A DNA stretch of 64,000 bases from Octopus vulgaris. Taxonomy: Eukaryota. The stretch's first letter is position 1; each line of letters begins with the position of its first letter. The notes below the pieces were generated by a model. The model made no database searches and was not told where the DNA came from. It saw only the letters and a program-made list of their open reading frames with translations. The position numbers and the translations under genes are program-made. The stretch lies in the NCBI GenBank assembly GCA_951406725.2, contig OX597837.1, positions 21,328,001 to 21,392,000 on the forward strand, given 5' to 3'. Shown here piece by piece: positions 31,714-48,190 of this stretch.

Positions 31714-31999
31714 GAGTTACATATTGTGGGGCAATAAGATTCTGATAATCAGAACTACTAATTATCTTTGGTGATCATTTTCTTCCAAATTTGTAACCAC
31801 CCCAAAAGTACAGTAACTGCTGTTTAATTTCTAAACAGAAATTCTATATTCTTATATTATTATAGAGATGTACTCGCATAGCAAGTAATTTGATCTGAGA
31901 TCGTGTGCTGAAACGAAAACAATTGCAGCGTGGAAGGTGTTTGTAAGTATTTAAGAAACACACAAAAGCCGTTCGATTCACTTCAACATTTAAGTTTAA

Positions 32000-32049
32000 T
32001 TTGTCAAAATATTTTCGTCGCTAAAATCCGCGACCTGTTCATTGACAAA
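32000..32049 (-). ncRNA. minimal type-I hammerhead-like fold, mutated copy (A3.C8 mismatch)
   Basis: Minus strand reads TTTGTCA-ATGAACA-G-GTCGC-GGATTTTA-GCGAC-GAAA-ATAT-TT-TGACAAA. Confidence 0.5.
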
Positions 32050-32064
32050 GATACAGCACGGATT

Positions 32065-32115
32065 TTTGTCAGTGAACAGGTCGCGGTCTTAAAGCGACGA
32101 AAATATTTTGACAAA
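32065..32115 (+). ncRNA. minimal type-I hammerhead ribozyme candidate with G3:C8 core variant
   Basis: TTTGTCA (stem I) - GTGAACA (core) - G - GTCGC/GCGAC (stem II) - GAAA - ATAT (palindromic loop III) - TT - TGACAAA (stem I'). Confidence 0.65.
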
Positions 32116-33235
32116 TTAAACTTAAATGTTGAAGTGAATCGAACGGCTTTTGTGTGTTTCTTAAATGGCTTATAGATACCTTCCACGCTGCAATTGTTAT
32201 ATTATTATAGTTAACATTTTAATGTTTTCTTGTCAAATTTCCTCCTCCCACTCCCCACTCAATCCCTTCCACCCCAAAGCACCCCCAATTTCATGACATA
32301 TTCCATGCTTTGCTCTAATTAATATTAATAAATCCTTTGTAATTTCATACCCCTTGTCATTGTAGTGGTTCACAATGGAGCTGATACATTACTACTTTTG
32401 GACTTACATCCTGCCTGAAAAAAAAAATCTAGTTTGCTAATTTAGTGAGTTAATCGCTTTCTCTTTACAAATACCTGAAGCTCTGAAGTTACCTTCTCTT
32501 TCTTTTCTCATCATCTATATTTTTTTCTTCCCTTCCAGTTTCTTTCTCTTTTTCTCTTTCTATCCATCTTCCAGTCCATTCACCTGATTTGCACAGATGG
32601 TCTCATCACTGGATTTTCTCTTGACAAGCTTTCTTTTAATTATTTCCATTATTTTATTTTCCCATTTATTTTACTTCTATATAAACTCTGTAGTTTTCAA
32701 ATGTTTGTCGTCACTCTATTTTTAGTACACAATTTTCTCCAGTGGCATCTTGATTCGTTTCCCTGTTTTGAAGACCTGTTGTTTGTTAGTAGATGTAGTT
32801 TTTTTTAAATCTTTTTGTATGCAGAGACTTCAAGATAAATGAAGCAGGTTGGGTTGGGTTGGGTTGGGTGAGAGAGAACTAAATTTGTGACGAAAATGAC
32901 TTTTTCTTTTGAAGTGTTTTCCAGAGTACCATGTAATGTAGAAAACTGTTAATGAAAGTCTCTGTTATTGAACGACTCATCATCAGTCGGTCATTTGTCC
33001 TTTTAGTTGATTCGAGAGGAGGAGGAGGAAGTGGTGGTAATGTGTGTATGTATGATGAAAGAAGATGTGTGGTTTTAGTTTTGAAACTGTGTTTGTAGTA
33101 GTAATAGTAGTAGTGTGTACTTTTGTGGGAATTGCCTTCAGTGAGGTATTATTGCTACTGGTACGGAAAGAAAGGTTGGGGACAAAAAATTTAGTTGGCA
33201 CTTTAATTGTATCACAGATCTTCATATTATTTTAA

Positions 33236-47344: not shown

Positions 47345-48190
47345 TTTATCAAAACAGAAAAATCTCAGATTATGTACAGTGAGAAACACAGGCATGGCTA
47401 TGTAGTTAAGAAGTCCACCTACCAACTACATTATTTCAGGTTCAATTCTACTGCATGGCACCTTGGGTTTTTTTATTACTAAGCCCAAGGTTGATCAGGT
47501 TTTGTGAGGGGCTTTTTATCAAAACAGAAAAATCTCAGATTATGTACAGTGAGAAACACAGGCATGGCTATGTAGTTAAGAAGTCCACCTACCAACTACA
47601 TTATTTCAGGTTCAATTCTACTGCATGGCACCTTGGGTTTTTTTATTACTAAGCCCAAGGTTGATCAGGTTTTGTGAGGGGCTTTTTATCAAAACAGAAA
47701 AATCTCAGATTATGTACAGTGAGAAATGCAGGCATGGCTATGTAGTTAAGAAGTCCACCTACCAACTACATTATTTCAAGTTCAATTCTACTGCATGGCA
47801 CCTTGGGTTTACTACTACAGCCCAAGGTTGATCAGGTTTTGTGAGGGGCTTTTTATCAAAACAGAAAAATCTCAGATTATGTACAGTGAGAAACGCAGGC
47901 ATGGCTATGTAGTTAAGAAGTCCACCTACCAACTACATTATTTCAAGTTCAATTCTACTGCATGGCACCTTGGGGGTTTACTACTACAGCCCAAGGTTGA
48001 TCAGGTTTTGTGAGGGGCTTTTTATCAAAACAGAAAAATCTCAGATTATGTACAGTGAGAAACGCAGGCATGGCTATGTAGTTAAGAAGTTCACCTACCA
48101 ACTACATTATTTCAGGTTCAATTCTACTGCATGGCACCTTGGGGGTTTTCTATTACAGCCCAAGGTTGATCTGGTTTTGTGAGGGGCTTT
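47345..48190 (+). repeat. tandem array, 5 x ~170 bp, containing a SINE A head
   Basis: Units start at 47345, 47515, 47685, 47852 and 48021 and are nearly identical. Confidence 0.97.

What the first reader, a model, noticed from the sequence alone, without database searches (positions are those of the whole stretch)
32065..32115. Minimal hammerhead ribozyme fold with a swapped G3:C8 core pair
Seen: a 7-bp stem I (TTTGTCA 32065-71 / TGACAAA 32109-15) encloses GTGAACA, one extra G, a 5-bp stem II (GTCGC/GCGAC), GAAA, the 6-nt palindrome AATATT, and a UH-type site (T32107, T32108). Established: this order matches the minimal type-I hammerheads of Penelope-like elements, which have a 1-bp stem III with a palindromic loop and are thought to cleave as dimers. 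The canonical core is CUGANGA, in which C3 pairs with G8; compensatory 3:8 swaps can retain activity, and an extra nucleotide between A9 and G10.1 occurs in some natural hammerheads. Inference: GUGAACA is a G3:C8 compensatory variant that CUGANGA motif searches would miss, so this may mark an overlooked ribozyme-bearing retroelement family in this genome.
Basis: partly seen in the sequence, partly recalled or inferred. Interest (0 to 1): 0.85.

Follow-up and report, generated by a model that had tools for sequence, protein, structure and literature searches.

The report
Octopus retroelement hammerhead with swapped core
A small RNA motif repeated about 8,000 times in the end repeats of an octopus jumping gene is a relative of the hammerhead self-cutting RNA in which two paired core letters have traded places, a swap so far found in print only as a lab-made mutant; it likely still cuts, slowly and in pairs, but cutting is untested.

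Summary
The motif lies in the pseudo-LTR of a young Penelope-like retroelement (RT plus C-terminal GIY-YIG, Nematis-type linker), 56 nt before the start codon. A G3:C8 pattern has 8,343 matches against 260 for the control. G3:C8 is the family state: 52 of 58 copies picked by an outside anchor. Of 11 3' UTRs examined (this family and relatives), 7 hold the fold, all Watson-Crick paired at 3:8 (G:C 1, C:G 4, U:A 2); the sister family in this genome has C3:G8 and a compensatory stem II change. So it is a hammerhead homologue with a derived, natural swap. Against: cleavage is unshown; within the family the motif is no better conserved than its 3' flank (p=0.40); G3 can pair with U17; this particular copy would be buried in a long hairpin if read through. 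Natural U3:A8 is in print; natural G3:C8 was not found in ten searches, but key papers were unavailable. The scan noted G3-C8 candidates in two other genomes (unchecked). New variant of a known kind.

The parts
31852..31865 (+). Left copy of a 14-bp AT-rich direct repeat, likely the target-site duplication (12-14 bp; ends ambiguous)
31866..32050 (-). Pseudo-LTR copy with 3' tail, the 3' end of a 5'-truncated Penelope-like insertion
   Evidence: 96.8% to both pseudo-LTRs of full element L163; tail pattern
31866..31917 (-). Tail (about 52 nt), which is the continuation of the ORF start in full elements
32000..32049 (-). Second hammerhead copy; position 3 mutated to A (A3/C8 mismatch), 8-nt loop II allele
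32049..32198 (+). Inverted, tail-less pseudo-LTR copy that holds the reported motif
32065..32071 (+). Stem I, 5' strand
32072..32078 (+). Core positions 3-9, GUGAACA (G3 = 32072, C8 = 32077)
   Evidence: homologues
32079..32079 (+). Extra nucleotide between 9 and 10.1 (G in all 7 related motifs)
32080..32098 (+). Stem II (5 bp, opens with G10.1:C11.1) and loop II, the variable part of the motif
32099..32108 (+). G12-A13-A14-A15.1, palindromic loop III, U16.1 and U17; predicted cut between 32108 and 32109
   Evidence: numbering by analogy with PMC4209133
32109..32115 (+). Stem I, 3' strand
32165..32198 (+). First 11 codons of the element's ORF (ATG at 32165), cut off by the insertion end
   Evidence: translation from this ATG runs into the RT ORF in L163/L164
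32197..32210 (+). Right copy of the direct repeat (likely target-site duplication)

Best explanation
The motif is a minimal type-I hammerhead homologue in the pseudo-LTR of a young, high-copy Penelope-like retroelement, carrying a fixed G3:C8 pair in place of C3:G8, and it likely still self-cleaves weakly as a dimer. Shown: position in both pseudo-LTRs of full elements, fixation of G3:C8, Watson-Crick covariation at 3:8 among relatives, G:C derived on this family's branch. Inferred: in a tandem transcript (pseudo-LTR, ORF, pseudo-LTR; motifs 4,261 nt apart in L163) two motifs would pair their AAUAUU palindromes into two stems III, probably helped by the element's protein; the swapped pair would keep the ribose of nucleotide 8 in place so its 2'-OH can still act as general acid; the cut after U17 would fall 56 nt before the ATG and give unit-length RNA. 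The rate would be below that of C3:G8 relatives. The copy in the window is a truncated by-product and probably does not fold this way when read through.
For: Full element with motif in both direct repeats and ORF between; GIY-YIG passes the Pfam cut-off. With positions 3 and 8 left free, 7 of 11 UTRs give a hit scoring 10 or more and all 7 pair at 3:8 (G:C 1, C:G 4, U:A 2), while 8 of 28 shuffled hits scoring 8 or more pair there. Sister family (58% protein identity, SH-aLRT 100) and an older relative have C3:G8 and stem II GTCAC/GTGAC against GTCGC/GCGAC. Among 58 unselected copies subfamily changes gather in loop II (5 of 8 sites) and spare the 35 constrained sites (1, an A>G that keeps a G.U pair; p=3e-4). 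Position 17 is U in 58 of 58, never the C that would pair with G3. PMC11167929: the C3G/G8C double mutant partly restores cleavage of a Penelope-like hammerhead, and cleavage needed the element's protein. PMC4209133: same architecture, dimers, natural U3-A8.
Against: No cleavage data. The motif is not better conserved than its 3' flank (1 of 35 vs 5 of 58, p=0.40). No covariation inside the family. G3 pairs with U17 at probability 0.67 in the predicted monomer, a likely trap. The palindrome duplex is very weak (-0.2 kcal/mol) and the one-pair monomer stem III costs 5.4 kcal/mol. The active sister family has fixed C at position 9, so these cores tolerate decay. 4 of 8 metagenome UTRs show no motif (three of the four stretches are short or start at an uncertain ORF end). 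The descriptor was relaxed after seeing the sequences, the seven motifs are related, and the pattern fixed four stem I letters in advance. In PMC11167929 cleavage was not needed for insertion in vitro.
Confidence: 0.62

Rival explanations
1. True hammerhead descendant that no longer cuts at a useful rate; the fold is kept as a protein-binding or template-positioning element, or merely rides along with the pseudo-LTR.
For: Flank as conserved as the motif; G3.U17 trap; sister family fixed C9; cleavage dispensable in vitro and no reads ending at the site in PMC11167929; Naiad elements spread without hammerheads (PMC8557442).
Against: A double transversion that restores exactly the 3:8 pair is expected only if the catalytic conformation was under selection when it arose; core unchanged across subfamilies while loop II changes; U17 kept.
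Confidence: 0.3
2. A foldback or MITE-like hairpin (or pre-miRNA-like stem) in which a hammerhead-like string occurs by chance.
For: The locus is a long inverted repeat that folds at -219 kcal/mol and weakly matches a miRNA model, below its cut-off.
Against: Arms are head-to-head pseudo-LTR copies, one with a tail, of an RT+GIY-YIG element; many copies are single; homologous motifs covary; this anatomy is the published Penelope pattern.
Confidence: 0.03
3. The letters are held by another constraint (reading frame, splice acceptor or promoter), not by RNA structure.
For: An open frame crosses the unit in one subfamily; acceptor-like signals lie 14 nt upstream of stem I.
Against: The loop II indel shifts that frame between subfamilies; the ORF starts 56 nt downstream; it does not explain paired changes across families.
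Confidence: 0.05

Closest known systems
Minimal type-I hammerheads of metazoan Penelope-like elements (Cervera and De la Pena 2014, PMC4209133)
   Same: Place in pseudo-LTRs, extra nucleotide between 9 and 10.1, G10.1:C11.1, palindromic one-pair stem III, UH site, dispersed truncated copies, opposite-strand pairs.
   Different: Core GUGAACA; the rows of its Fig. S3 that I saw (part 2 of 3) are all CUGA..GA or UUGA..AA. The extra nucleotide is G, outside its consensus H (one row seen there has G).
Natural U3:A8 hammerheads (Perreault 2011, PMC3088659; Cercyon elements in PMC4209133)
   Same: Natural compensatory change of the 3:8 pair.
   Different: U3:A8 is two transitions and keeps pyrimidine-purine order; G3:C8 is two transversions and reverses it.
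Engineered C3G/G8C mutant of the anole Poseidon (PAc) hammerhead (PMC11167929)
   Same: Same swap in a Penelope-like hammerhead; partly active.
   Different: Laboratory mutant; here the swap is fixed in a natural family of about 8,000 copies.
Nematis and Neptune clades of Penelope-like elements (PMC8557442)
   Same: C-terminal GIY-YIG with CX3CxxC linker, pseudo-LTR plus tail, inverted 5' copy, TA-rich insertion sites. The short spacer after CxxC (7 residues) matches the Nematis rows of Fig. S2.
   Different: Neptune rows have a much longer spacer. No tree with named references was built, so the clade is by motif only.
Non-LTR retrozymes (PMC7229834; bioRxiv 10.64898/2026.07.22.740005)
   Same: Type-I hammerhead in a short repeated unit; one 9-copy tandem of about 172 bp seen (L026).
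   Different: The other copies inspected are dispersed truncations of an autonomous element.

Membership tests
Minimal hammerhead of Penelope-like elements | Core CUGANGA as in the published descriptor | tested here: not met
   GUGAACA in the window and G:C in 52 of 58 copies. Hence filed as a variant homologue, not as a member under the published descriptor.
Minimal hammerhead of Penelope-like elements | Watson-Crick pair between positions 3 and 8 | tested here: met
   G:C here; C:G or U:A in 6 related motifs
Minimal hammerhead of Penelope-like elements | U4 G5 A6, A9, G10.1:C11.1, G12 A13 A14, A15.1:U16.1, H17, extra nucleotide, palindromic loop III | tested here: met
   whole core intact in 45 of 58 copies
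Minimal hammerhead of Penelope-like elements | Lies in the pseudo-LTRs of an RT + GIY-YIG element | tested here: met
   L163
Minimal hammerhead of Penelope-like elements | Covariation in stems | tested here: met
   Across families only: stem II G:C vs A:U, wholly different paired stems in metagenome relatives. None within the family. No R-scape-type test was run.
Minimal hammerhead of Penelope-like elements | Better conserved than flanks within the family | tested here: inconclusive
   Better than loop II (p=3e-4), not better than 3' flank (p=0.40)
Minimal hammerhead of Penelope-like elements | Site-specific self-cleavage, as a dimer | not testable with these tools
   Only assembled contigs were listed, which cannot show RNA ends
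Rfam hammerhead families | Score against the covariance models | tested here: not met
   No hammerhead match at E up to 10 or at gathering score; none either for five loci holding relatives at E up to 5
Penelope-like element, EN+ C-terminal | Single ORF with RT and C-terminal GIY-YIG; pseudo-LTRs; tail; inverted 5' copy | tested here: met
   (RVT_1 only weak, E 0.052, on a fragment)
Nematis clade | Short CX2-5CxxC linker before GIY-YIG | tested here: met
   against Fig. S2 rows
Nematis clade | RT phylogeny with named members | not tested
Non-LTR retrozyme | Tandem non-coding monomers as the main form | tested here: not met
   1 of 30 loci is a tandem array
MITE / foldback DNA transposon | Terminal inverted repeats as fixed ends, no link to an RT | tested here: not met
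   Arms unequal, many single copies, continuous with the RT ORF

The most novel reading that the evidence does not exclude
The first natural hammerhead family with a purine-pyrimidine-reversed G3:C8 core that is catalytically active and under selection, fixed through several waves of a still-young retroelement and coupled to U17; core-fixed searches have missed a class of such ribozymes across eukaryotic retroelements.
Probability: 0.4. Interest if true: 0.7.

Novelty: new variant of a known kind. Interest (0 to 1): 0.52.

Why it matters
G8 is treated as near-invariant and hammerhead searches are built on CUGANGA. A natural family with G3:C8, next to a sister with C3:G8 in the same genome and cousins with U3:A8, is evolutionary support that only the pair and the ribose matter at position 8, and gives a matched set for an open question: whether Penelope hammerheads must cut for the element to spread. 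It also means hammerhead counts miss thousands of copies here, and some elements called hammerhead-less may only have swapped cores.

Tried and rejected
Rfam found no hammerhead here or in canonical relatives; the MIR6140 match is the inverted repeat and is below cut-off. Best-match copies are about 96% alike and were chosen on the motif, so they were not used for conservation; an outside anchor was used instead (5 second arms dropped from 90 loci, 27 of 85 copies too short to reach stem I). No RNA holder listed; all 24 runs are contigs. Contigs of four runs show the listed frequent variants in loop II and flanks, with 68 rows not shown; not used as evidence on expression. A second read-laying, meant to look for splicing, gave no result, so the intron is untested. 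DNA around the 120 protein homologues could not be obtained, which limits the comparison to 11 UTRs. Viral and prokaryote collections gave one weak and no relative. An early reading as Neptune was changed to Nematis-like. A coding role for the motif was rejected (frame differs between subfamilies). The tree is the quick version (SH-aLRT only, midpoint root). No covariance model was built; the MAFFT alignment misplaces one row and was not used for pair counts. Five papers were not held: PMC5785218, PMC3334697, PMC4447102, PMC1986816, PMC2151028.

Full report
Observation. Stems I and II form in the predicted fold with probabilities 0.93 and 0.99; the fold alone is only mildly unusual (z -1.77). 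The motif sits in the right arm of a head-to-head inverted pair (89.8% over 283 nt) flanked by a 14-bp AT-rich direct repeat. The left arm carries a second copy on the minus strand with A at position 3 and a tail of about 52 nt that the right arm lacks.

What the repeat is. The window lies in a 2.8-Gb genome; the closest named homologue of the element's protein is labelled Octopus vulgaris by its source and is encoded at 100% identity in this genome. [quoted passage not shown] L163 is a whole example: pseudo-LTR with motif, ORF, second pseudo-LTR with motif 4,261 nt later, and an inverted tail-less partial copy at the 5' side. The ATG lies 56 nt after the predicted cut, and the tail is the continuation of the ORF start. 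This is the anatomy described for Penelope-like elements (PMC8557442, passages; PMC11167929, passages). The short Cys linker matches the Nematis rows of a published alignment (supplement part 54 of 59); no named-reference tree was made. The window copy is therefore a 5'-truncated insertion made of two pseudo-LTR ends.

Copy number and fixation. A G3:C8 pattern has 8,343 matches against 260 for its reversed control. With positions 3 and 8 free there are 7,054 matches against 0; 95 of the 100 listed are G:C, counted by eye. An anchor outside the motif has 7,771 matches; of 90 loci fetched, 5 second arms were dropped, and 58 of the remaining 85 reach stem I. In these, 52 are G:C, 45 have the whole core intact, and position 17 is U in all 58. 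Variants shared by at least 8% of copies affect 5 of 8 non-CpG loop II sites, 1 of 35 constrained sites (an A>G that leaves a G.U pair) and 5 of 58 sites of the 3' flank: significant against the loop (p=3e-4; partly an effect of one indel), not against the flank (p=0.40).

Relatives. The sister family in the same genome (58% protein identity; many copies 99% alike with long open frames) has the same fold in both pseudo-LTRs with C3:G8, the extra G, stem II GTCAC/GTGAC, but C at position 9 and a non-palindromic loop III. A pattern with C3:G8 in this family's scaffold found 142 matches against 0, older relatives of the sister family with core CUGAAGA, which differs from GUGAACA only at 3 and 8; four stem I letters were fixed by the pattern, and stem I is imperfect in many of the 20 inspected. 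Eleven metagenome loci were found, 8 with sequence after the ORF. With 3, 8, 9 and 15.1/16.1 free, 7 of 11 UTRs gave a hit scoring 10 or more, all Watson-Crick at 3:8 (G:C 1, C:G 4, U:A 2); one overlapping weaker hit was unpaired; four UTRs gave none. Shuffles gave 8 such hits in 196.5 kb, and 8 of 28 weaker shuffled hits were paired at 3:8. The descriptor was relaxed after seeing the sequences and the families are related, so this is no formal test. The quick tree joins this family with the C:G sister (SH-aLRT 100) among C:G and U:A relatives, so G:C is most simply derived.

Mechanism. By established chemistry G12 is the base and the 2'-OH of nucleotide 8 the acid (PMC6155905, passages), and 3:8 is a Watson-Crick pair of the active fold (PMC3884650, passages). 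In a Penelope-like hammerhead the single changes abolish and the double swap partly restores cleavage, and cleavage needed the protein. Minimal motifs were inactive as monomers and weak as multimers (PMC4209133, parts 1-2 of 4). I infer slow, dimer- and protein-assisted cutting that trims tandem transcripts. Against it: monomer stem III costs 5.4 kcal/mol, the palindrome duplex is -0.2 kcal/mol, G3 pairs with U17 at 0.67, and cleavage was dispensable for insertion in vitro. PMC3884650 notes that a G3-C8 mutant does worse with C17 than with G17 (data not shown there), which fits the absence of C17 here. For the window copy, a transcript across both arms folds into a long duplex (-219 kcal/mol) in which the motif's stems have probability 0.0, so this copy is probably not an active site. 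Overall: homologue of the hammerhead about 0.92; still cleaving at a useful rate about 0.62.

Literature. Natural U3:A8 is reported in PMC3088659 (passages and section 8) and PMC4209133. Five papers that bear most directly were not held, among them the study of hammerhead variants in these elements, so novelty is not settled. Rfam misses this motif and canonical relatives alike. The scan's own notes hold two unchecked G3-C8 candidates near Penelope-like RTs in other genomes, each with an added core letter; none for this sequence or genome.

Verdict. A real, family-wide, derived G3:C8 variant of the minimal Penelope hammerhead; new variant of a known kind; activity untested; interest 0.52.

Noticed in passing
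window 31866-32198; L004; L061; G000:C1:4619633-4619733: The two arms of one inverted insertion carry different loop II alleles (8-nt and 9-nt types) that elsewhere mark different subfamilies. This would fit two different RNA templates being copied in one insertion event; gene conversion or nested insertion are not excluded.
   Followed up: partly
L041 1507-1710 and 108 locus stretches (not deduplicated): Intron-like signals (GTRAG donor, CTAAC branch, YAG acceptor) span about 200-350 nt and end 14 nt before stem I, like the retained intron ending at helix I in Drosophila virilis Penelope. No spliced genomic copy was found in the loci held.
   Followed up: partly
L118-L127 (sister family): Very young family with open frames up to 1,316 codons whose hammerhead has C at position 9 and a non-palindromic loop III; metagenome locus L129 also has C9, with U3:A8.
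   Followed up: partly
L111 minus 4784; L067 plus 7045: Hammerheads of other families met by chance in flanks: one U3:A8 with a CGCG loop, one canonical with an 8-bp stem II near another RT fragment.
   Followed up: no
L026 624-2216: Nine tandem copies of the pseudo-LTR unit at 170-174 bp spacing, separated by TA runs, only the last with a tail: a retrozyme-like array that would favour dimer cleavage.
   Followed up: partly
L128 4973-5015: Metagenome relative with C3:G8 but U15.1:A16.1 and a palindromic loop.
   Followed up: no
window 47345-48190: Five tandem copies of a 170-bp unit, 97% alike.
   Followed up: no
L061 4217-5108: Transposase-like frames (mariner-like by recalled motifs, no family scan run) inserted in the element's 3' region.
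   Followed up: no
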